DNA from: an uncultured Acidimicrobiales bacterium
GTDB taxonomy: Bacteria; Actinomycetota; Acidimicrobiia; Acidimicrobiales; SZUA-35
Reading direction: 5' to 3'
Length of the DNA stretch: 64,000 nucleotides
NCBI GenBank assembly: GCA_963698395.1
Contig: CAVOQQ010000006.1
Coordinates: 482,098 to 546,097, forward strand
A program made the translations under genes and the position numbers. How positions within the stretch are numbered: position 1 is the stretch's first letter; the number at the start of each line of letters is the position of its first letter. This document shows, one piece after another, positions 22,751-46,998 of the stretch. The notes under the pieces are model-generated. The model made no database searches. It had not been told where the DNA came from and worked only from the letters and a program-made list of their open reading frames with translations.

Positions 22751-24505
22751 TCAGCCTCGCGAGACCTCACGCGGCGACGCAGCACGCAGGCGACCGACCG
22801 AGCGGCGTCGCAGCTTGGTCTTCCAACTCTCGGTGACGTCAGCCAACCTCGCCTGGGCCGCGGCGTCGCCGATCAGCACCAGGCTGGTACGGGGGCCGAG
22901 CAGCGCGTCACCGCTGGGATTGCCGATGAGCTGGCCGTCGACGTCGATGGCGACGACATTGCATCCGGTCTCGGCCCGGATGTGTGAGTCGGCCAGGGTC
23001 TTGCCCAGCATCGTCGGCGGCACGGGGGCCCGGAAGACGTCGAGACCTTCGGCGACGACGAGGGTGTCGTTGCCACGGAAGTGGTTCCAGATCGCCGCCG
23101 CCCCGATCGATGCATAGGAGAGGACATCGTCGGCCCCGGCTCGGTAGAGCGTCGACACGTTGCGATCGAGGTTGGCCCGAGCAACGATCCGGATGTCCGG
23201 GCGTAGCCGCCGAATGTAGATCGACAGGTAGATGTTGACATCGTCGTCGTGGGTCGTCACCAGCACGCCGGTGGCCGAGCGGATGCCCGCCGACTCGAGC
23301 ACGGCAAGGTCGGCGGCATCACCGATCACGTAGTGGTCACCGTGGATCCGGTCGCTCTGCTGTTCGATGATCCGATGAGCGATGTCGGCCGCATCGAAGG
23401 CCCGACCGGCGGCTCGGCCGACTCGACCGCCGCCGATGATCACCACCGCCCCGGCATGGTCCGAGTTTGTCTCGTACTCACGGTCATACGCCTCCAGCTG
23501 TTGCTCGGAGGCAGCAAGGATCAAGACCGATGATTCGGTGAGCAAGGTCTCGGGAGTGGCGATGGTGAAGACGCCATGGTCCCAGACTCCGATGACGCCA
23601 ACGCCGAGTCTCGACCGCAATGCTGCCTCGGCGAGACGAACACCGACGAGCGGCGTGGCTGCCACTCGAGCTTCGGCGATCAGGACGCCGGCGAATCGTC
23701 CGATGACGTGGCTTCGACCGTCGGGCAGCAGTGTTCGATTCGACATCGACGTCCCCAGCAGTTCGCCGAGACGCAACACCTCGTCGGCCCCGGCCAGCTC
23801 CAGGATGTCGATCGAGGCGGCCTTGGTTGCCGTCGCCACGACGGGGACATCCGGCGAGATCTCTCGCACGGTGAAGATGATGTTGGCGTTGGTCGTGTCG
23901 GGCCAGGTGGCCGGCACCAGAGCAGCGTTGGCCACTCTGGCGGCCCGGTGGGTTGCCGGGTCATCGCTGCTGCCGACCATGACCTGGTAGCCCTGGTCGT
24001 GGAGTTTGAGAGCCTCGGCCAGATCGTCGACGAGGACGACGTACCCGACCCCCGCCTGCTCGGCCCGCCGAATGAGCGCGTCCTCGATCGGTCCCAGACG
24101 GGTGAGGACGAGGTGGCCGCTGGTTTCTTCGGGAAGGCTGCGAGGGGCCCGACTGGCGTCGCGCCGAGTCATCCAGGGAACGAAGACGAACTGGATGAAC
24201 GCGAAGGGCAGGAGGATCAACAAGAACGCCGTTCCGGTCAGGAGGACCACGACCGAGAAGATGCGCCCGACGTCAGAGGTGAAGGTGATGTCGCCGAACC
24301 CCAACGTGGTCATGGTGACGAGCGTCCAGTAGAAACCGGTGGCCCAGCTGTGGTTCTGACCTTCGCGAGCCATCAGCTCGTGGAAGATGACGGTGAAGCT
24401 GACGACGAGCACCACGAAGATGCCGAGCAGGACGAGCACCATGCGGAGGTCTCGGCGACGTAACGGTCCCGCGAGGTAGCTCAGGACGAATGCGAGACTC
24501 TTCAT
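22751..24505 (-). CDS. Potassium channel (2-TM pore) with two RCK/TrkA domains
   Basis: ATG 24505 (MKSLAFVLSYL...). Selectivity filter TTLGFGD, then two Rossmann-like RCK modules (second one VVIIGGGRVGRAAG). This is only the C-terminal 584 codons of the 1445-aa track ORF. Confidence 0.85.
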   Translation of the reverse strand: MKSLAFVLSYLAGPLRRRDLRMVLVLLGIFVVLVVSFTVIFHELMAREGQNHSWATGFYWTLVTMTTLGFGDITFTSDVGRIFSVVVLLTGTAFLLILLPFAFIQFVFVPWMTRRDASRAPRSLPEETSGHLVLTRLGPIEDALIRRAEQAGVGYVVLVDDLAEALKLHDQGYQVMVGSSDDPATHRAARVANAALVPATWPDTTNANIIFTVREISPDVPVVATATKAASIDILELAGADEVLRLGELLGTSMSNRTLLPDGRSHVIGRFAGVLIAEARVAATPLVGVRLAEAALRSRLGVGVIGVWDHGVFTIATPETLLTESSVLILAASEQQLEAYDREYETNSDHAGAVVIIGGGRVGRAAGRAFDAADIAHRIIEQQSDRIHGDHYVIGDAADLAVLESAGIRSATGVLVTTHDDDVNIYLSIYIRRLRPDIRIVARANLDRNVSTLYRAGADDVLSYASIGAAAIWNHFRGNDTLVVAEGLDVFRAPVPPTMLGKTLADSHIRAETGCNVVAIDVDGQLIGNPSGDALLGPRTSLVLIGDAAAQARLADVTESWKTKLRRRSVGRLRAASPREVSRG

Positions 24506-24601
24506 GGCCCAGCATGATGGCACGGCGCCGATGCAGAACCGCCGTTCGGGTTCGGGTGTCTGGGGTATCGTCCGAGACGGCGAGCAGCTCAGGAGGCACT
24601 G

Positions 24602-26218
24602 GTGCACCGTGACGACGCAACGAATTCGACGACCCACGACATCGTCATCATCGGCGCCGGCTTCAACGGTCTCTATCAGCTCTACCGATTGCGGGCCGAA
24701 GGGTTCGATGTCCGCCTGGTCGAGGCCGCGCCGGGGCCTGGTGGCGTCTGGTACAACAACAGCTATCCCGGGGCTCGGGTCGATTCGTACATCCCGGACT
24801 ACGAGTTCTCGATGGAAGCGGTCTGGCGCAACTGGAACTGGTCGGAGCGCTTCCCCGGGGCCGAGGAGCTTCGCCGTTACTTCGTTCACGTCGTCGACAC
24901 CCTCGAACTGCGGGCGAACATCGGTTACGACACTCGCGTCGAGACGGCGACGTTCGATGACGACGCTCGTCGCTGGCTGCTCGCGACGACTGCGGGCGAG
25001 CTCTCGGCCCGGTTCCTGATCCCCTGCCTCGGCTTTGCCTCGAAGCCTTTCATCCCCGCCATCGACGGGTTGGAGAGTTTCGCCGGCGGGTGTCACCACA
25101 CTGCACTGTGGCCGGAGCAGGGCGTCGAGTTCGACGGCAAGCGAGTCGGCGTGATCGGCACCGGTGCCAGCGGGGTCCAGGTGGTGCAAGAAGCGGCCAG
25201 AGTGGCCGATCACCTCGTGGTATTCCAGCGAACGCCGGTCACTGCCTTGCCCATGCAGCAACAGCGTTACTCGATCGCCGAGCACGAGGCGCTCAAGGCG
25301 GACTATCCCGAGATGTTCCGACGCCGCAACTCCCCACCGGGAAGTTTCAGCAACATTCGTCGACTCGACGTCTCCGCCCTCGAGGTGTCGGAAGAGGAGC
25401 GACAGGCCGTCTTCGAGGCGGCATGGCAACGTGGCGGCTTCCACTTCTGGAACGGAACGTTCGCCGACATCATGTCCAGCAGCGAGGCCAACCGCACCGC
25501 CTATGACTTCTGGCGCGACAAGACCAGGGCTCGCATTGCCGACCCGTGTCTGGCCGAGGTGCTCGCGCCGACCGATCCGCCGTATCCGTTCGGCGCCAAG
25601 CGGCCATCGCTCGAGCAGGACTACTACGACGTGTTCAACCAGGACAACGTGGAACTCGTCGACCTGAGCGCCGACCCGATCCTTCGGGTGACGCCGACCT
25701 CGGTGCAAACCGCTACCGGATCGATCGACCTCGACGTGCTGATTCTGGCGACGGGCTTCGATGCCAACACCGGTGGCATCCTCGCCCTCGACCTCCATGA
25801 TCTCGAAGGCGTGTCGCTGTCTGAGCGGTGGGCCGATGGCGTCGACACCCATCTCGGAATGGCGGTTCCCGGGCTTCCCAATCTGGTCTTCCTCTACGGG
25901 CCGCAGAGCCCGACGGCGTTCTGCAACGGTCCGACCTGCGCCGAGGTCCAGGGCGAATGGGTGGTCGGACTCCTGGTGGCCATGCGAGCCAGTGAGCTGA
26001 CTCGCATCGAGGCGGCCGAGGAAGCGGCTGCAGCGTGGACGGCCCAGGTCGAGCGGGTCGGAGCCATGACGCTGTTTCCGCAGGCCGACTCGTGGTACAT
26101 GGGCGCCAACATTCCCGGCAAGAAGCGGCAGTTGCTGAACTATCCGTCGACCGACAGCTACCTCCGACAGCTTCGAGCGAACGCCGCAGCGGGCTACACC
26201 GGATTCGTGCTGACCTGA
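24602..26218 (+). CDS. Baeyer-Villiger monooxygenase (cyclohexanone-MO-like)
   Basis: 538 aa from a GTG start. Motifs IVIIGAGFNGL, fingerprint FAGGCHHTALWP, GVIGTGASGVQ. Confidence 0.9.
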   Translation: MHRDDATNSTTHDIVIIGAGFNGLYQLYRLRAEGFDVRLVEAAPGPGGVWYNNSYPGARVDSYIPDYEFSMEAVWRNWNWSERFPGAEELRRYFVHVVDTLELRANIGYDTRVETATFDDDARRWLLATTAGELSARFLIPCLGFASKPFIPAIDGLESFAGGCHHTALWPEQGVEFDGKRVGVIGTGASGVQVVQEAARVADHLVVFQRTPVTALPMQQQRYSIAEHEALKADYPEMFRRRNSPPGSFSNIRRLDVSALEVSEEERQAVFEAAWQRGGFHFWNGTFADIMSSSEANRTAYDFWRDKTRARIADPCLAEVLAPTDPPYPFGAKRPSLEQDYYDVFNQDNVELVDLSADPILRVTPTSVQTATGSIDLDVLILATGFDANTGGILALDLHDLEGVSLSERWADGVDTHLGMAVPGLPNLVFLYGPQSPTAFCNGPTCAEVQGEWVVGLLVAMRASELTRIEAAEEAAAAWTAQVERVGAMTLFPQADSWYMGANIPGKKRQLLNYPSTDSYLRQLRANAAAGYTGFVLT

Positions 26219-26269
26219 CGGCGCTCCGGCCCGACTGCGCTCTGGCCCCTTGCGAGCTAGGTTCTGCTC

Positions 26270-27154
26270 ATGGACACGATGATCGACTCGTCGGTGTTGT
26301 CGGAAGAACAGCGGGAGTTCTACCGCAACGAGGGGTACCTCCAGCTTCCGGGACTCGTCGACCAGGAATGGTTGGCCGAGCTCCGATCGGTGTCGGCGGC
26401 GTTCGTGGAGCTGAGTCGTGAGATCTCCGCATCCAACAGGGTCCTCGATGTCGAGCCGACGCACCGCGCCGAACAACCGAAGCTTCGGCGTCTCAACTCG
26501 CCGGTCGACAACCACGAGACCTTCCGCCGGTTCTCGTTGGAAGGCCCACCGGCTCAGGTGGCGATGGCGTTGCTCGGTGGACCGGTGCGCTATCACCACT
26601 CGAAGCTCAACTACAAGTGGTCCGACGGCGGTGAAGAGGTCAAGTGGCATCAAGACATCCAGTTCTGGCCGCACACCGACTTCACGCCGTTGACGATCGG
26701 CGTCTACCTCGATGACGTGGATGACGAGATGGGGCCGATGGGTGTCCTGCCCGGCAGTCACACCGGCAAGCTCTACGACCTCTACGACGCCGATGGCTCG
26801 TGGGCCGGCGCCATCGCCGATGACGATCTCGCCTCGATCGACCTGTCGCCGATGGTCTGGCTGAAGGGTCCAGCCGGGTCGATGACCGTGCACAACTGCT
26901 GCATGGTGCACGGGTCGCTGCCGAACCATTCGGCTCGCCCTCGGCCACTCCTCTTGCAGACCTATTCGGCCATCGAGTCGTATCCGGTGGCCGGCATCGG
27001 AGCGAACGGCGTCACGGGTCGCACGAGCGGCGTGATCATCGGCGGGCCGCCAACCCAACAGCTGACGATCGATGGTCGCCGGCTGCACGGCGCGCCCGAC
27101 TGGTCGCGTAGCGGCCCGCCGACCATCTTCGGCTCACAGCAGAAGGATCGCTGA
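26270..27154 (+). CDS. Phytanoyl-CoA dioxygenase (PhyH) family oxygenase
   Basis: 294 aa with FYRNEGYLQLPGLV, WHQDIQFW (H-x-D) and MVHGSLPN. It lies 51 nt downstream of the BVMO on the same strand. Confidence 0.8.
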   Translation: MDTMIDSSVLSEEQREFYRNEGYLQLPGLVDQEWLAELRSVSAAFVELSREISASNRVLDVEPTHRAEQPKLRRLNSPVDNHETFRRFSLEGPPAQVAMALLGGPVRYHHSKLNYKWSDGGEEVKWHQDIQFWPHTDFTPLTIGVYLDDVDDEMGPMGVLPGSHTGKLYDLYDADGSWAGAIADDDLASIDLSPMVWLKGPAGSMTVHNCCMVHGSLPNHSARPRPLLLQTYSAIESYPVAGIGANGVTGRTSGVIIGGPPTQQLTIDGRRLHGAPDWSRSGPPTIFGSQQKDR

Positions 27155-40380: not shown

Positions 40381-40507
40381 ATCGTCGGATCTCCTGGAGG
40401 TCGGGGGGCGAAGCCTATCGGTTGCCGTCCTCCGACCAGGACGATCGATGAGCAGTGCTCCCTAGCACCCCGATGCCGTCGCCCCGTCTGCTGAGGATTT
40501 TCGCTCT

Positions 40508-42547
40508 GTGAGCGACGGTCAGCGGCCCGTACTCTCCGTCATCGTGGGCAACCTGAACCAGGACCAGACCGGCGACCTCGATTCGGGCGTACAACTTCGA
40601 CATGAGGCCGGCCTCACGGCCGGTCTGATCATGCCGCTCGGCACCGGGTCGTTTCAGTTCGGGCCGCAACACACCGCCTCGGAGGGTCTGGGATCCGGAG
40701 AACCCGAAGCAACGAGCTTCCAACTGACGGTCGAAGGAGCAGACCGGATCTTCGCCGCCCGCGGTGACGAGCCGCTTGCCGTCGAGGGAACGCCCGTCCT
40801 CGATCGCGTGCAGGTGCGTCCAGGCGAAGTCCTGCAACTTGCGACCGACCATTTCATGGTCGACAGCACGGCAAGCACAAAGGACACATCGCCGCCAACC
40901 CAGCTTCGGGTGCCGCCCCTGCCGAAGGTCAACGACGCCGGTGAGCAACGCTGGGGCCTGCTCCTGGGGTTGGTGGCCGTCATCGGGCTCGCCCTCGTCC
41001 TTGCTCTTGCCGGAGTCGGGATCGTCAGGCTCGCCATCGTCGTCGTTCTGGGGCTCTCCATCGTCGCCGTCGCTCGGTACCTGCTTTCGAAGCGAGCCGA
41101 CGAGAAGCGAAGGGAGCAACGTGCCATCGTCACCGAATCGTTCACGACAGACCTGCGGGCTGCCCGATCCGCAGCCGCTCGGGAGCTTCGCCACGCCCAT
41201 CCTGGGCCGGCAGGCGTCTCGGATCTTGCCGCCGGCCGGCGGTCGCTCGTCGGCGCGTTCGACGGCCAGGTGTCGATTGCCTCCGGCGACCTCGGCTGGC
41301 AGCCACGCATCGACGACGGAGCCACTGCCGGCTGGAACCACGACGCCATCGTCACCCAGCACGACTTCCTGCCCGCCGTCCCGTTCACCGTCGATATCGA
41401 TCATGACACGATCGGGATCGTCGGGAACCGGCGGTCGGTGCTTGCGGTTGCCCGTCACTTGTTGACGGCCACGATGGTTCAGGCCGATCGCTCCGAGCTT
41501 CGCATCACCATTTCGGCCGCCGATGATCGCCAGGCCGACTGGGCCTGGTTGGACGGCTTTTGCTCGGCCGGCCGGTGGACCCACGAGATCAACGTGTTCG
41601 ATGGGGTCGTGCCGCCGCGGAGCGGGCCCGGCTTCGTCATCCTCGCCGAGGCGGACGACGAGCTGGTCGTCGACTGTGGAACCACACTGATCGTTCGTGA
41701 CGATGGTGTCGCGATGGCCGAGACCCAGAGTGGATCGGCAACGGGCCTGGTACCTCACGGCATCACCGAGACCCACGCCCAGTCGATCGTGGCCGCTCTG
41801 GCAGAGGTCACACAGAAAGACGCAGCCATCGGTGACACCCCGCCGGTCGTCGTGCCGCCCGACGATCATGCGCCGATTGCTCCGCTGACCGAGATGCCCG
41901 CCGATGCTCCCACCATCGACCTCACACCCGAGCGTCGTGCGAGTGCGGGTGTCGCGCAGCGCCTGATGGTGGTCGGGGAGCCAGGAGAAGATGTCGTATC
42001 GCTCGTTGCCTCTGCCGTTCTGGATCATGCAAGCGAGCACCCCGACCGGCCCATGTTCGTGCTCGATCGCGGCGACCGGTCACTGATCCGTTTGGCCCAA
42101 TTGCCGTCATGTCACGGCTATGCGGCCATCGATGACGTTCCGGCAGCGACCGAGATGATGGAGCGGTTGGAGGAGTTCGTGGCGTCGGGCCGGGAGATCC
42201 CTGCGCTGCTGGTCGTCTCCGATCTCGGTCGAGCACTCGAGTTCTACCGTCGAGCCGGATTGGCTGACCCGCTTGGGCGTCTCGAATCGCTGCTCGACCA
42301 ACGCTCGCGACTCGTGTGCGCCACTGCCTCGACTCGCCCCGGAACCGAGGGACTCGAGCAACTGGTTCATCGTTTTCCTGTGTTCGTGTTTGCCTCTGCC
42401 GACGATCAAGGCGCGGCCGAAGGGCTTCTCGTCCTCGACTCGAGCGGCGAGCACCGCGTGCACGATTTCTCCGTCGCCGGTCTCGATCTGACCGACAAGG
42501 TTGCGAGGATGACCTTCGCATCCTCGAACGCACGAAGGGCATCATGA
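40508..42547 (+). CDS. Hypothetical membrane protein with FHA-like N-terminus, two TM helices and two P-loop-like domains with degenerate Walker A (FtsK/EssC-like architecture)
   Basis: 679 aa from a GTG start. The N-terminus FQLTVEGADRIFAARGDEPLAVEGTPVLDRVQVRPGEVLQLATDHFMV resembles the C-terminal half of an FHA fold. The TM pair is WGLLLGLVAVIGLALVLALAG / LAIVVVLGLSIVAVARYLL. IGIVGNRRSVLAVARHLL and RLMVVGEPGEDVVSLVASAVL sit where GxxGxGKS/T would be. Confidence 0.45.
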   Translation: MSDGQRPVLSVIVGNLNQDQTGDLDSGVQLRHEAGLTAGLIMPLGTGSFQFGPQHTASEGLGSGEPEATSFQLTVEGADRIFAARGDEPLAVEGTPVLDRVQVRPGEVLQLATDHFMVDSTASTKDTSPPTQLRVPPLPKVNDAGEQRWGLLLGLVAVIGLALVLALAGVGIVRLAIVVVLGLSIVAVARYLLSKRADEKRREQRAIVTESFTTDLRAARSAAARELRHAHPGPAGVSDLAAGRRSLVGAFDGQVSIASGDLGWQPRIDDGATAGWNHDAIVTQHDFLPAVPFTVDIDHDTIGIVGNRRSVLAVARHLLTATMVQADRSELRITISAADDRQADWAWLDGFCSAGRWTHEINVFDGVVPPRSGPGFVILAEADDELVVDCGTTLIVRDDGVAMAETQSGSATGLVPHGITETHAQSIVAALAEVTQKDAAIGDTPPVVVPPDDHAPIAPLTEMPADAPTIDLTPERRASAGVAQRLMVVGEPGEDVVSLVASAVLDHASEHPDRPMFVLDRGDRSLIRLAQLPSCHGYAAIDDVPAATEMMERLEEFVASGREIPALLVVSDLGRALEFYRRAGLADPLGRLESLLDQRSRLVCATASTRPGTEGLEQLVHRFPVFVFASADDQGAAEGLLVLDSSGEHRVHDFSVAGLDLTDKVARMTFASSNARRAS

Positions 42548-43443
42548 ATCAGCCACCAACCTGGGCAGCTCGGTCACTTCCCGAAGGAGGAGACCCCGGT
42601 CCTGTCACACCCAAGAACGACGAGCCGAAGCGGTCACTGCTCCTTCCCGTCCTCGGCGCAGGGGCACTCGCTCTGCTGGTCGGCGCTGCGGGATTCGCCA
42701 TCGGTCGTGGCGACAACGGCAACGATGCGGCCGCCACCGGTGACGAGATCACGACGACGAGCGACTCGTCGGCGACACCCGCCACGACGACCACCACTGC
42801 CTCACCAACGACGACCGAAGCACCGACCACGACCCAGGCGCCGACCACGACCGAAGCACCGACCACGACGCAAGCGCCAACCACACTGCCCGACGCAGCT
42901 GATGAGGCCGGCGCGCAGGAGGTCGATACCGAACGGCGTGCGGTGCTGAAAGGGGGCAAGCTGTATTTGCGTGGTCGCATCCCCAGCGAGGAAATCGCGG
43001 CTGCCATCGTCGAACGGGCTGCTGCCGTTGTCGGAGCCGACAACGTCGTCGACGAATATGTCATCGACCCCGCGGCGGCGTTCCCCGAAAGCGCACCCCT
43101 CTATGTCGAAGACCTCGTGCTGTTCGCCTACGGCTCGGATCAGATCAATCCTGCCTTCGTTCCGCTGCTCGACCTCGGAACGGCTCTGCTGTCCCAGAAT
43201 CCCCAGGTGATCATCACCATCGTCAGCCACACCGATGCCGACGGCTCCGAAGAGTTCAACCTCGATCTCTCCGAACGGCGAGGCGCGGCGGTCAAGAAGT
43301 ACTGGACCGATCTCGGGATCGATCCCGACCAGATCGTCATCGAGGCCCGCGGCGAGTCGTCGCCGATCGGCGACAACGACACCGACGAGGGCGCTCAGCT
43401 GAACCGTCGTGCCGAGTTCGTGATCGCGAATCTCCTGGGATAG
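42544..43443 (+). CDS. OmpA/MotB-family peptidoglycan-binding protein with N-terminal TM anchor and Thr/Pro-rich linker
   Basis: ATG 42544 overlaps the upstream stop (ATGA). The TM is LLLPVLGAGALALLVGAAGFAIG. The OmpA_C signature is SHTDADGSEEFNLDLSERRGAAVKKYW...NRRAEFV. Confidence 0.8.
   Translation: MNQPPTWAARSLPEGGDPGPVTPKNDEPKRSLLLPVLGAGALALLVGAAGFAIGRGDNGNDAAATGDEITTTSDSSATPATTTTTASPTTTEAPTTTQAPTTTEAPTTTQAPTTLPDAADEAGAQEVDTERRAVLKGGKLYLRGRIPSEEIAAAIVERAAAVVGADNVVDEYVIDPAAAFPESAPLYVEDLVLFAYGSDQINPAFVPLLDLGTALLSQNPQVIITIVSHTDADGSEEFNLDLSERRGAAVKKYWTDLGIDPDQIVIEARGESSPIGDNDTDEGAQLNRRAEFVIANLLG
42811..42882 (+). repeat. 2 x 36-bp in-frame tandem repeat (TTEAPTTTQAPT) in the OmpA-like linker
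   Basis: acgaccgaagcaccgaccacgacccaggcgccgacc / acgaccgaagcaccgaccacgacgcaagcgccaacc, identical at 33 of 36 positions. Confidence 0.9.
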
Positions 43444-45274: not shown

Positions 45275-46603
45275 CTAGGGCCCGGGTGGCCAGAGTCCGA
45301 GGTTTTCGAGTCGGGTTTTGTGGCGGTGACATGGTCCGCATCTGGGTTCGCCGTTGGTGGGGACGGTTTGCCCGCCCTCGCAATGGCGAATGGTGTGGTC
45401 GGTGTCGCAGTGCCAGGCTCGGGTGTCGCAGCCGAGGCCTTGGCAGTGCCGGTCGCGGATCATGATGCCGAGCCGTTGGGCCCCGGTGAACAGCCGGGTT
45501 TTGGCTGATGCTTCGAAGTTGCGGGTCTTGGTGTTCATGACGAAGAGGCGGACGTGGCCGGCGATGGCGATGTCGAGTGCGTCGGCGGGGGAGATCGGGC
45601 GGCCGGACTCGGTTTCGCAGCGGCGGGTGGCGGCCCGTCGGCAGGCCTCTTCGGTAGTCAAGGTGCACGGCGTGAAGGTTTCGCCTCGGGCTTCGGCGTC
45701 TCGTCGTTCGGCTTGTTCGTCGAGTGTGTCGTTGTCGACGACGACGTTGGCGACGAGGTTGGCGGTGGCAGGGTCGGCGCCGATGCCGTTGCGGATGAGG
45801 CGGAACAGGGCGTCGTGACGGCGTTGGGTGTCGGAGCGGTGGAGGTCTTCCATGGTGGCGCCGTCACCGATGCGTGCCCGTGCTTCGGCCCAGTCGGCTT
45901 CGAACAGTTCGTCGGTCAGGACCTTGATCGCCGGTTCGACGAAGGCGAACGCGGCGGTGGTGGTGAGGATCTCCATGATCACGTGCTGTTGCACAGGGCT
46001 GGTGAAGGTGAGTGACCGGTCGGTGTGGGCCCGTTCGGCGTATTCGTTCGGATCGACCGGGTCGACGAGGATTTCCCAGCTCTGGAACAAGGAGTTGCAG
46101 GTGGGCCAGTCGTTGCGGGTGAACCCGATGAGTGCGGTGAGGTCTCGGGTGAGGAAGGAGCGCAGTGCGGGTTTGTTCCAGATGCGGGCGAATAGGTCGA
46201 GGTGTTCGTCTCTGATGGTGCCGGCCCGGTAGGCGTCGCCGAGTTCGGTGTGGATGCTGAACATGAGGGCGCCGCGTTTGAGGACACCGCCGGCGGTGCC
46301 TTTGGCGATGCGGAGCGAGTCGGCAAGCCACAGGGTCTCGTTGCGGTACTGATCGGCCGATGGGCCTTTGCGACGTTTCGCCTCGGCGCAGAGCTGGTAG
46401 TAGTCGGCCTTGGCCTGCCGTGCCCGGTGCTCGGATTCGAGGATCAGCTCGTGCAGCTGCGTCTTCGACAGGTCGGTCGGATCGATCGTGGCGAGATCGA
46501 CGCCGGCGAACGGCCGCTCATCGAGAGGCGTTGTCGTTCCGCCGATGGTTGGTTCGTGTGGCGAGTCTCTGAGTACTCCACCGATGCTCCCGCCCAGGAC
46601 CAT
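45275..46603 (-). CDS. DUF222 / HNH endonuclease domain protein (REP13E12-like family)
   Basis: ATG 46603 (MVLGGSIGGV...). The C-terminal HNH/Zn-ribbon is DRHCQGLGCDTRAWHCDTDHTIRHCEGGQTVPTNGEPRCGPCHRHK. The body resembles actinobacterial DUF222 proteins. Confidence 0.8.
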   Translation of the reverse strand: MVLGGSIGGVLRDSPHEPTIGGTTTPLDERPFAGVDLATIDPTDLSKTQLHELILESEHRARQAKADYYQLCAEAKRRKGPSADQYRNETLWLADSLRIAKGTAGGVLKRGALMFSIHTELGDAYRAGTIRDEHLDLFARIWNKPALRSFLTRDLTALIGFTRNDWPTCNSLFQSWEILVDPVDPNEYAERAHTDRSLTFTSPVQQHVIMEILTTTAAFAFVEPAIKVLTDELFEADWAEARARIGDGATMEDLHRSDTQRRHDALFRLIRNGIGADPATANLVANVVVDNDTLDEQAERRDAEARGETFTPCTLTTEEACRRAATRRCETESGRPISPADALDIAIAGHVRLFVMNTKTRNFEASAKTRLFTGAQRLGIMIRDRHCQGLGCDTRAWHCDTDHTIRHCEGGQTVPTNGEPRCGPCHRHKTRLENLGLWPPGP

Positions 46604-46609
46604 GGTGGA

Positions 46610-46638
46610 AGAATAGCGAACAGATGTACGTAAATCAA
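46610..46638 (-). promoter_or_regulatory. Sigma-70-type promoter TTGATT-17 nt-TATTCT, positioned for a leaderless transcript of the HNH/DUF222 gene
   Basis: The minus strand reads TTGATT (46638-46633), a 17-nt spacer, TATTCT (46615-46610), then 6 nt (TCCACC) and ATG 46603. No Shine-Dalgarno is present. It sits within a ~65-bp AT-rich island (46608-46672). Confidence 0.5.
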
Positions 46639-46648
46639 AAGCTTTTGA
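46635..46648. promoter_or_regulatory. Perfect 14-bp palindrome TCAAAAGCTTTTGA overlapping the -35 element
   Basis: Read directly from the sequence; it is centred on AAGCTT. Confidence 0.5.
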
Positions 46649-46998
46649 AATTAAAAAAGTCAGTATGATGAGAGTCTGGCGCCAAGCAGCAGCGAAGCGG
46701 TCGCCGCGGTCAGGATGGCCATGGTCCGCCGAGTAGGAGCCCGATGATCCACGAACCTCGACAGCACCAGCAGCGCACCGATCAACAGCGGCATCGCAAG
46801 GGCGGCTACGCCCGCCGCGGTCAACCCTCCGGAACCCTCGAGCCAGCGAGCGCCAGACCAGCAAGTCGGACTTGACGGCCACGAAGTCCAGGAGGTGGTG
46901 GTCGAGGTGGTGGCGGCACGCTGGTCGGGTGGTCGAGTGTCATGTCTCGAACTAGCGTCGGATGCGAAGCCGTTGAACATCACTCCGAGGGGGAAGCG

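What the first reader, a model, noticed from the sequence alone, without database searches (positions are those of the whole stretch)
40508..43443. FHA-like / 2-TM / FtsK-like protein with both Walker A sites degenerate, translationally coupled to an OmpA-family peptidoglycan binder
The 679-aa product has the domain order of EssC/FtsK-type translocases: a forkhead-associated-like N-terminus, two adjacent TM helices, then P-loop-type domains. Where GxxGxGK(S/T) is expected it has IGIVGNRRSVLA and VVGEPGEDVVSL, with no Lys in either. There are only two such domains, and I see no WXG100-like substrate or other type VII components nearby. Its stop overlaps the ATG (ATGA, 42544-42547) of a membrane-anchored OmpA_C protein, whose Thr/Pro linker contains a 2 x 36-bp tandem repeat. 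A catalytically dead FtsK-like scaffold tied to a cell-wall anchor is not a system I can name. It could be a divisome or envelope scaffold regulated by Ser/Thr phosphorylation through the FHA-like domain. My homology assignment comes from visual motif comparison only.
Basis: inference. Interest (0 to 1): 0.6.

Follow-up and report, generated by a model that had tools for sequence, protein, structure and literature searches.

The report
Motor-less EssC-like protein with wall anchor
An Acidimicrobiia gene pair encodes a relative of the type VII secretion ATPase that lacks the motor domain, always next to a membrane protein that binds the cell wall; this undescribed pair probably acts as an ATP-independent envelope scaffold.

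Summary
The 679-aa ORF (40508-42547) has an FHA fold, a two-helix membrane hairpin and two RecA/FtsK-fold domains without a Walker A lysine. Its stop overlaps (ATGA) the start of a 299-aa protein with a membrane helix, a Thr/Pro linker and an OmpA_C domain.

Profile and fold searches place it in the EccC/EssC (type VII secretion ATPase) superfamily. The first P-loop-like domain is the "DUF" pseudo-ATPase that all EccC/EssC proteins carry. The second is most like their D2 domain. D2 also lacks the lysine in every full-length relative that the domain profile matched.

So the dead sites themselves are not unusual. What is unusual is that the catalytic D1 (and D3) are absent. No type VII genes lie nearby. 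The canonical phosphothreonine-binding residues of the FHA domain are all replaced.

About 24 clusters share the four-domain architecture, and all eight genome hits are Acidimicrobiia. The OmpA partner is adjacent in all 13 loci that are long enough to show it. That includes a lineage with the gene order flipped, usually between clpC and lysS. The partner has a conserved cytoplasmic tail (PTWAGRS).

Best reading: a type VII-derived, ATP-independent membrane scaffold tethered to peptidoglycan. It is a new variant of a known kind, and its physiological role is unknown.

The parts
40493..40497 (+). Shine-Dalgarno-like GAGGA, 10 nt before the GTG start of the 679-aa gene
   Evidence: Read directly from the sequence.
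40508..42547 (+). Gene for the 679-aa motor-less EssC/EccC-like protein (called X in this report)
   Evidence: ORF listing. Orthologues at E=0 to 1e-79. A family profile finds 690 relatives.
40571..40879 (+). Non-canonical FHA-fold domain (residues 22-124). The phosphothreonine-binding residues are replaced: G52-P53, E67, S70, E88-P89.
   Evidence: AF2 model with pLDDT 72.5. All top 50 Foldseek PDB hits are FHA domains. hhalign against canonical FHA domains of full-length ATPases gives 93% probability, E 2.6e-7.
40952..41086 (+). Hairpin of two membrane helices (residues 149-171 and 175-193) joined by a 3-residue turn
   Evidence: Hydropathy. AF2 helices 146-167 and 170-230. The NCBIfam EccCa model aligns to residues 152-348.
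41087..41197 (+). Cytoplasmic stalk helix (residues 194-230) that continues the second membrane helix
   Evidence: AF2 secondary structure. The family profile aligns to YukB (9qks) residues 257-480.
41258..41818 (+). DUF-type pseudo-ATPase domain (residues 251-437). The Walker-A-like string GNRRSVL lies at 41423-41443. R308 and D365 are invariant.
   Evidence: Foldseek hits to EccC5 DUF 8rin, ESX-5 7np7 and ESX-3 6umm. Profile hits to YukB and EccC5. The domain HMM hits positions ~340-550 of full-length ATPases. EccC5 has GEREQVL and an R227-D328 pair (PMC11154593).
41819..41944 (+). Disordered, length-variable linker (residues 438-479) carrying the short motif TIDLT (41912-41926)
   Evidence: pLDDT below 50. 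Linker length is 7-170 aa in the family, and 11 of 24 members match [VILMA][VILT]D[LP][RTE] (mostly VIDLR or VIDLT).
41945..42538 (+). D2-like degenerate FtsK/RecA-fold domain (residues 480-677). The P-loop position reads VVGEPGEDVVSL (41969-42004). The Walker B position reads LLVVSDL, with no Glu. The most conserved motif is VLDRGDRSLIRLAQL (42059-42103).
   Evidence: Profile hits to EssC D2 (5fv0, 4lya; E 3e-4) and EccCb1 (9jv8). Foldseek hits to EccC D2-D3 4n1a at 5e-11. The domain HMM hits positions ~950-1100 of 1300-1450-aa FtsK_SpoIIIE proteins.
42544..42547 (+). ATGA stop/start overlap, implying translational coupling
   Evidence: A 4-nt overlap is found in all 9 first-tier loci (8 ATGA, 1 GTGA) and in L020.
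42544..43443 (+). Gene for the 299-aa partner: cytoplasmic tail, membrane helix, Thr/Pro linker, BON-like domain, OmpA_C domain
42547..42582 (+). Conserved cytoplasmic N-terminal tail motif NQPPTWAARSLP (family consensus P-x-W-A/S-x-x-S/P-V/L-P)
   Evidence: Alignment of 9 partner proteins. Second-tier partners read MSSPQWSSQSVP and MTSPEWSNHPLP.
42637..42705 (+). Single membrane helix of the partner (residues 32-54)
   Evidence: Hydropathy. K29-R30 precede the helix, which fits an N-terminus inside the cell.
42706..42912 (+). Thr/Pro-rich low-complexity linker, including the 36-bp x 2.2 tandem repeat at 42805-42884
   Evidence: TRF. The linker varies in length and sequence among orthologues.
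42934..43065 (+). Conserved BON-like segment (residues 131-174)
   Evidence: Pfam BON E 0.015, below the cut-off. The segment is strongly conserved among orthologues.
43120..43407 (+). OmpA_C peptidoglycan-binding domain (residues 193-288) with the HTDADGSEEFNLDLSERRG and NRRAEF motifs
   Evidence: Pfam OmpA 1.7e-17. PDB sequence hits to Pal, PA0833, Rv0899 and YiaD.

Best explanation
X is a membrane protein derived from the type VII secretion ATPase lineage (EccC/EssC). It keeps the N-terminal module: an FHA-fold domain, a hairpin of two membrane helices, the stalk helix and the DUF pseudo-ATPase. It also keeps one D2-like RecA-fold domain. It has lost the catalytic D1 domain and D3, so it cannot hydrolyse ATP and cannot power secretion.

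X is made together with a single-pass membrane protein; the coupling through the 4-nt overlap is inferred from the sequence. That partner's extracytoplasmic BON-like and OmpA_C domains bind peptidoglycan through a long Thr/Pro linker.

Inferred mechanism: the partner's conserved cytoplasmic tail (PTWAGRS) and membrane helix dock onto X, either on its phospho-independent FHA domain or on its membrane hairpin. X then oligomerises through its two RecA-fold domains, as EccC DUF domains are proposed to do. The result would be a static, wall-tethered platform in the cytoplasmic membrane.

The pair is a vertically inherited core module of Acidimicrobiia. It is not part of a secretion or defence island.

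Shown here: the homology, the domain order, the loss of catalytic and phosphothreonine-binding residues, and the conserved pairing and synteny. Inferred only: physical contact between the two proteins, oligomerisation, and the physiological role.
For: EccC/EssC relationship:
- NCBIfam EssC 1.4e-9 and EccCa 6.9e-6, both over the membrane and DUF region.
- The family profile hits PDB sequences YukB, EssC D2, EccCb1 and EccC5.
- Foldseek top hits are EccC D2-D3, EssC, YukB with DUF, ESX-5 and ESX-3 EccC, and the EccC5 DUF crystal structure.
- The profile finds 1300-1500-aa FtsK_SpoIIIE proteins whose first ~550 residues align to X residues 14-425.

No motor:
- No Pfam FtsK_SpoIIIE or AAA hit in any of 15 family members.
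- No Walker A lysine in any member.
- GNRRSVL with R308 and D365 mirrors EccC5-DUF GEREQVL with R227 and D328. That domain does not bind ATP.

FHA domain:
- The fold is FHA.
- The phosphothreonine-binding residues are replaced.

Pairing:
- The OmpA partner is adjacent in all 13 loci long enough to show it.
- A 4-nt overlap is present in 10 of them.
- In 3 distinct places (L015, L016 and L018/L019) the gene order is flipped, yet the genes remain adjacent.
- The partner's N-terminal tail motif is conserved across both tiers.

Synteny and context:
- The pair lies near lysS in L004, L005, L015, L018 and L020, and between clpC/polyprenyl synthase and lysS in L004, L018 and L020.
- No type VII genes occur in any flank or in the window.
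Against: There is no direct evidence for contact between X and the partner, for oligomerisation, or for any phenotype. The full-length AF2 model is poor (pLDDT 55.7, built from 4 sequences), so domain packing and the detail of the nucleotide pockets are unreliable. Only 64 kb of this genome and flanks of 20 kb or less elsewhere were seen, so a complete type VII system elsewhere in the genome cannot be excluded. Nucleotide binding without hydrolysis was not tested. Adjacency shows functional linkage, not a physical complex.
Confidence: 0.6

Rival explanations
1. X is an accessory or regulatory subunit of a genuine type VII secretion system encoded elsewhere in the genome. It would mix into the ring of a full-length FHA-bearing ATPase (T7SSd-like TsdC), or gate it. 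The OmpA partner would fix the machine to the wall.
For: X shares FHA, membrane, DUF and D2 modules with full-length ATPases. The closest of these (P0025, P0031) have similarly degenerate D2 domains. EccC is naturally split into EccCa and EccCb in ESX-1 (one search hit to EccCb1). T7SSd occurs in Actinomycetota (PMC11217815).
Against: No type VII gene lies within the window or within 16-20 kb around five other loci. The pair sits in a housekeeping neighbourhood and is inherited as a two-gene unit. X's FHA domain has lost the phosphothreonine pocket that one search reports as well conserved in T7SSd TsdC and that 20 of the profile-matched relatives (most 980-1570 aa) carry.
Confidence: 0.2
2. 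This is the first reader's model: a divisome or envelope scaffold switched by Ser/Thr phosphorylation that is read by the FHA domain.
For: The FHA fold is confirmed. The partner's tail contains a conserved Thr in the first tier (PTWAGRS).
Against: The canonical Arg, Ser, His and Asn are replaced by Pro, Glu, Ser and Glu throughout the family. The tail Thr becomes Gln or Glu in the second tier. No kinase or phosphatase is conserved nearby. No division genes lie in the neighbourhood.
Confidence: 0.1
3. X is a decaying remnant of an EssC/EccC gene, a pseudogene in progress, and its adjacency to the OmpA gene is accidental.
For: The catalytic domains are absent and the linker between the two RecA-fold domains is disordered and variable in length.
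Against: Intact ORFs with the same four domains occur in about 24 clusters at 50% identity or less. They keep more than 20 invariant residues and long conserved motifs. The partner is adjacent even after the gene order flipped. The 4-nt overlap is conserved.
Confidence: 0.03
4. The pair is an anti-phage defence module with a MotB/ZorB-like wall anchor.
For: PADLOC gives weak hits: X to LeoBC at 7.9e-6, and the partner to ZorB at 2e-7.
Against: The LeoBC hit covers only the membrane hairpin and stalk. The ZorB hit covers only the shared OmpA_C domain. There is no ZorA/MotA-like channel gene. The core-genome synteny is unlike a defence island.
Confidence: 0.03

Closest known systems
EssC/YukB (T7SSb) and FHA-bearing TsdC-type ATPases (T7SSd, Actinomycetota)
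   Same: X has the same order of FHA fold, two membrane helices, stalk and DUF pseudo-ATPase, followed by an FtsK/RecA-fold domain. Homology is significant at both profile and fold level. Like the EssC FHA domains, X's FHA domain lacks the phosphothreonine site (for EssC; for X).
   Different: X has one FHA domain and only one post-DUF domain, which is D2-like. Catalytic D1 and D3 are absent. No WXG100, YukD or EssB genes lie nearby. X has an obligate OmpA_C partner. It scores 36 bits against the 778-bit EssC cut-off.
EccC5 DUF domain (PDB 8rin; PMC11154593)
   Same: Both are RecA-like folds with a helical, lysine-less Walker-A-like segment: G-x-R-x-x-x-L (GNRRSVL in X, GEREQVL in EccC5). Both have an Arg-Asp pair at the equivalent positions, and in X these (R308, D365) are invariant.
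   Different: In EccC the DUF domain is followed by the active D1 motor and contacts EccD. No EccD was found in the window or in the flanks examined.
ArfA / Rv0899 (OmpATb) of Mycobacterium tuberculosis
   Same: The partner shares the architecture: N-terminal membrane helix, BON-type domain and OmpA_C peptidoglycan-binding domain. The sequence hit to 2l26 is 9e-11.
   Different: The partner has a conserved cytoplasmic PTWAGRS tail and a long Thr/Pro linker, and it is coupled to an EssC-like gene rather than to arfB/arfC. The BON match is below the Pfam cut-off.
Type VI secretion membrane complex (TssM/IcmF NTPase, TssL/DotU with OmpA-like extension, Fha scaffold)
   Same: This is an analogy only. 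Both combine a membrane protein carrying a cytoplasmic P-loop-fold domain, an FHA module and an OmpA_C wall anchor. The partner hits the 'type_VI_ompA' model at 1.4e-15 through its OmpA domain.
   Different: There is no homology outside the OmpA_C domain, and no sheath, tube or baseplate genes are present.

Membership tests
EccC/EssC (type VII secretion FtsK/SpoIIIE-type ATPase) | N-terminal pair of membrane helices followed by a stalk helix | tested here: met
   Hydropathy and AF2 helices. The EccCa model aligns to residues 152-348.
EccC/EssC (type VII secretion FtsK/SpoIIIE-type ATPase) | DUF pseudo-ATPase domain after the stalk | tested here: met
   Foldseek hits to 8rin, 7np7 and 6umm. The domain HMM maps to positions ~340-550 of full-length ATPases. 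The GxRxxxL and Arg/Asp pair match EccC5.
EccC/EssC (type VII secretion FtsK/SpoIIIE-type ATPase) | Three FtsK/SpoIIIE ATPase domains, including a catalytic D1 with GxxGxGK[ST] and hhhhDE | tested here: not met
   Only one post-DUF domain is present. No family member has a Pfam FtsK_SpoIIIE hit. There is no Walker A lysine and no Walker B glutamate.
EccC/EssC (type VII secretion FtsK/SpoIIIE-type ATPase) | Curated NCBIfam score cut-off (EssC 778 bits; EccCa 509 bits) | tested here: not met
   X scores 36.2 and 25.1 bits.
EccC/EssC (type VII secretion FtsK/SpoIIIE-type ATPase) | Genomic association with WXG100 (EsxA) and other type VII components | tested here: not met
   None in the window or in the flanks of L001, L004, L005, L018 and L020. 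The rest of each genome was not seen.
FHA domain (phosphothreonine reader) | 11-stranded beta-sandwich FHA fold | tested here: met
   AF2 model with pLDDT 72.5. The top 50 PDB matches are all FHA domains, with target-normalised TM-scores of 0.66-0.77 among the top dozen. hhalign gives 93% probability.
FHA domain (phosphothreonine reader) | Conserved GR, SxxH and NG phosphothreonine-binding residues | tested here: not met
   They are replaced by G52-P53, E67, S70 and E88-P89, and the replacements are conserved in the family. X scores below the Pfam FHA threshold.
OmpA_C-like peptidoglycan-binding proteins (partner protein) | Pfam OmpA domain above the gathering score, with the TDxxG...NxxLSxxRA and NRR motifs | tested here: met
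   64 bits against a 27.2-bit cut-off. HTDADGSEEFNLDLSERRG and NRRAEF are read in the sequence. PDB hits are Pal, PA0833 and Rv0899. Actual peptidoglycan binding cannot be tested here.
ArfA/Rv0899-type architecture (membrane helix, BON, OmpA_C) | BON domain between the membrane helix and OmpA_C | tested here: inconclusive
   Pfam BON scores 16 bits against a 27-bit cut-off, E 0.015. The segment is strongly conserved among orthologues.
FtsK/SpoIIIE DNA translocases | Active alpha/beta motor with Walker A/B, plus a gamma DNA-binding domain | tested here: not met
   No FtsK_SpoIIIE or FtsK_gamma Pfam hit, and the P-loop is degenerate.

The most novel reading that the evidence does not exclude
The pair forms a previously unknown, ATP-independent, wall-anchored ring or pore in the cytoplasmic membrane of Acidimicrobiia. 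It would be an exapted type VII 'chassis' (FHA, membrane hairpin, DUF and D2) serving as a core envelope structure. Together with the much larger family of FHA/DUF-only proteins, it would show that the N-terminal module of EccC/EssC has a function of its own, independent of secretion.
Probability: 0.3. Interest if true: 0.7.

Novelty: new variant of a known kind. Interest (0 to 1): 0.55.

Why it matters
What the DUF domain and the degenerate D2/D3 domains of type VII ATPases do is still debated. The current proposal is a structural, oligomerising role (PMC11154593).

This family is a natural experiment on that question. Evolution kept FHA, membrane hairpin, DUF and a D2-like domain, discarded the motor, and tied the product to a peptidoglycan anchor. 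If the pair forms a complex, it offers a minimal system for studying how this module assembles. It would also assign a core envelope component to Acidimicrobiia, a class for which no paper in the library linked the class to type VII secretion or EccC.

The family has no Pfam or NCBIfam model and no name in the databases searched.

Tried and rejected
- Two homologous-protein searches were poor value. The word-index search with the 15-sequence alignment returned only the same four proteins. The search with P0013 added only three. That kept the alignments for structure prediction shallow.
- The afdb50 fold library was not available.
- P0001 itself is not indexed for contig look-up.
- The single-sequence PDB search gave only chance hits (GspM).
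- The promoter/terminator scan and the Rfam scan around the pair found nothing useful.
- The PADLOC hits were judged to come from composition or a shared domain.
- The long antisense ORF 40415-42040 was rejected as a mirror-frame artefact of high GC content.
- The pseudogene reading was rejected because of family-wide conservation.
- A literature search found no paper linking Acidimicrobiia to type VII secretion or EccC. One search failed on term syntax.
Full report
**Observation**

The window has about 65% GC throughout. The ORF at 40508-42547 (+) encodes 679 aa. It starts at GTG, with GAGGA 10 nt upstream. Its TGA overlaps the ATG of a 299-aa ORF (42544-43443) in an ATGA.

The strings IGIVGNRRSVLA (residues 302-313) and VVGEPGEDVVSL (488-499) are present and contain no lysine. 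The downstream protein has a clear OmpA_C domain (Pfam 1.7e-17, 64 bits against 27.2) and one N-terminal membrane helix. Its Thr/Pro linker contains a 36-bp x 2.2 tandem repeat at 42805-42884. Every factual element of the finding is confirmed. I call the 679-aa protein X below.

**What X is**

Pfam has no model for X or for any of 15 family members. NCBIfam gives sub-threshold hits to EssC (1.4e-9) and EccCa (6.9e-6) over residues 152-348.

A four-sequence profile searched against 1.84 billion representative proteins found 690 relatives. About 24 clusters share the full architecture. Many hits are 1300-1500-aa proteins that Pfam recognises as FtsK_SpoIIIE multi-ATPases, some with an N-terminal FHA domain. 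X residues 14-425 align to their first ~550 residues.

I built HMMs for each domain of X. In those long proteins the HMMs map as follows:
- FHA at positions ~90-180.
- DUF at positions ~340-550.
- The C-terminal domain of X at positions ~950-1100, which is the second ATPase domain (D2). D1 lies at ~575-790.

A 15-sequence profile against PDB sequences hit four relevant structures:
- YukB (9qks) over the membrane and DUF region, E 8.7e-5.
- EssC D2 (5fv0 and 4lya), E 3e-4. X's most conserved motif fVLDRGDRsLIRLAQLp aligns to yyIFDFGNSALLPLRQLPH.
- EccCb1 (9jv8).
- EccC5 (7b9f).

Foldseek with the full-length AF2 model returned type VII ATPases as its best matches. These were T. curvata EccC D2-D3 (5e-11), EssC, YukB with DUF, ESX-5 and ESX-3 EccC, and the EccC5 DUF crystal structure (target-normalised TM-score 0.48). 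The model itself is poor (pLDDT 55.7).

The N-terminal 135 residues were modelled separately from an 8-sequence alignment (pLDDT 72.5). All top 50 PDB matches for that model were FHA domains.

X is therefore FHA fold / two membrane helices plus stalk / DUF pseudo-ATPase / disordered linker / D2-like RecA-fold domain.

**The dead sites in context**

The EccC5 DUF domain has the Walker-A-like string GEREQVL. That string folds as a helix and does not bind ATP, and its Arg227 pairs with Asp328 (PMC11154593). X has GNRRSVL at the same place. R308 and D365 are invariant in all 15 aligned members. Domain 1 is thus degenerate in the same way as in genuine secretion ATPases.

For domain 2, no X-family member has a P-loop lysine. 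The D2 domains of the full-length relatives also lack it. Some read GxxGSG[T/V/L][S/T]T. Others, including the closest ones (P0025, P0031, P0118, P0122), are fully degenerate. Published work likewise describes D2 and D3 as degenerate.

None exist, so this test is passed. The real anomaly is not that the two sites are dead. It is that the only domain that is active in EccC/EssC, D1, is missing, together with D3.

**The FHA domain**

hhalign of the X FHA alignment against the canonical FHA domains of 20 of the profile-matched relatives gave 93% probability, E 2.6e-7. These relatives are mostly full-length and carry the GR...SxxH...S/TxNG motifs.

The equivalences are Arg to Pro53, Ser to Glu67, His to Ser70 and Asn-Gly to Glu88-Pro89. 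These replacements are conserved across the family. This resembles the EssC FHA domains, which bind EssB without phosphorylation (PMC11217815).

**The partner and the pairing**

All eight hits in the species-level genome collection are Acidimicrobiia metagenome-assembled genomes. In every locus with enough downstream sequence the OmpA gene follows X directly. A 4-nt overlap is present in all 9 first-tier loci (8 ATGA, 1 GTGA).

A second tier of the family has about 28% identity to X (P0013, P0017). It keeps the linkage but not always the order:
- In L015, L016 and L018/L019 the partner lies about 250 nt upstream of the X-like gene.
- In L020 the partner follows the X-like gene with a 4-nt overlap.

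Adjacency that survives a change of gene order is strong evidence of functional coupling.

The partners share five elements:
- A conserved cytoplasmic N-terminal tail. It reads M-N-Q-P-P-T-W-A-G-R-S-V-P in the first tier, and MSSPQWSSQSVP or MTSPEWSNHPLP in the second.
- A membrane helix.
- A Thr/Pro-rich linker of variable length.
- A conserved BON-like segment.
- An OmpA_C domain.

This architecture matches that of M. tuberculosis ArfA/Rv0899.

In L018 a 72-aa ORF overlaps the stop of the X-like gene. It encodes only a tail and a membrane helix. This suggests that the tail plus helix is the part that matters for X.

**Genomic context**

In five lineages the pair lies near lysS (L004, L005, L015, L018, L020). 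In L004, L018 and L020 it sits between clpC/polyprenyl synthase and lysS, with fol genes and tilS beyond. This is a housekeeping neighbourhood.

In the window the pair lies among unrelated genes: a universal stress protein, hypothetical proteins, PhyH, DUF222 and a P450. No other window neighbour is conserved with the pair.

No type VII component, Ser/Thr kinase or PP2C phosphatase is conserved next to the pair in any locus. L001 alone has a SpoIIE-domain sensor about 2 kb downstream. None was found among the window ORFs scanned. The window holds no second copy of X. A histidine kinase and a LuxR-type response regulator precede the pair in L004 and lie a few kb upstream of it in L005.

**Mechanism**

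Shown:
- X is a motor-less derivative of EccC/EssC.
- By analogy with EccC/EssC, both of its termini are cytoplasmic.
- It lacks the residues for ATP hydrolysis and for phosphothreonine binding.
- It is co-inherited and co-encoded with a wall-binding single-pass membrane protein.

Inferred:
- The partner's tail and membrane helix dock to X's FHA domain or membrane hairpin.
- X oligomerises through its RecA-fold domains.
- The Thr/Pro linker lets the BON-like and OmpA_C domains reach peptidoglycan, which would give a static wall-tethered membrane platform.

I put about 0.6 on this scaffold-plus-anchor reading. The main rival, at about 0.2, is that X is an accessory subunit of a type VII system encoded elsewhere. 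The phospho-switch, pseudogene and defence readings are unlikely, for the reasons given above.

**Novelty**

All domains are of known kinds. The family has no Pfam or NCBIfam model and no source annotation. No paper in the library connects Acidimicrobiia with type VII secretion or EccC. I rate it a new variant of a known kind, of moderate interest (0.55).

Noticed in passing
Protein hits P0027-P0151 (for example P0028, P0030, P0039, P0042); not in the window: About 80 of the 150 best profile hits are 350-650-aa proteins with only the FHA-like domain and the DUF-type pseudo-ATPase. They have no further ATPase-like domain, and the two that were scanned (P0028, P0030) have no Pfam hit. This looks like a large undescribed family made of just the N-terminal module of EssC. 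Some may be truncated gene calls on short contigs.
   Followed up: partly
window 41819-41944 (X residues 438-479; motif TIDLT at 41912-41926): The disordered linker between the DUF and D2-like domains varies from 7 to 170 aa across the family. In 11 of 24 members it carries one or two copies of a short motif matching [VILMA][VILT]D[LP][RTE], mostly VIDLR or VIDLT. This may be a docking motif, by analogy with EccC linker 2.
   Followed up: partly
L018 11872-12090: A 72-aa ORF overlaps the stop of the X-like gene. It encodes only a partner-like N-terminal tail and a membrane helix, while the full OmpA partner lies upstream. It looks like a remnant of an ancestral downstream partner gene.
   Followed up: partly
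window 40415-42040 (-): A 541-aa ORF runs antisense to X. Its codon-position GC pattern (0.75/0.49/0.74) is almost the same as that of X. It is a mirror-frame artefact of a high-GC gene and has no homologue support.
   Followed up: yes
L004 8036-9889; L005 4759-8299: A histidine kinase and a LuxR/GerE-type response regulator lie directly upstream of the pair in L004 and a few kb upstream in L005, but not in the window. They may regulate the pair in some lineages.
   Followed up: no
window 45275-46882 (-): A 535-aa DUF222 protein (Pfam 1.6e-6) lies two genes downstream of the pair. The pair here is away from the clpC-lysS position seen in other lineages, which may reflect a local rearrangement.
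   Followed up: no
window 22751-27088 (-) versus 24602-27154 (+): A 1445-aa minus-strand ORF has TrkA and ion-channel domains only in its C-terminal third. It overlaps plus-strand ORFs with good Pfam hits: a flavin monooxygenase at 24602-26218 and a PhyH protein at 26270-27154. The long ORF is probably over-extended at its 5' end.
   Followed up: no
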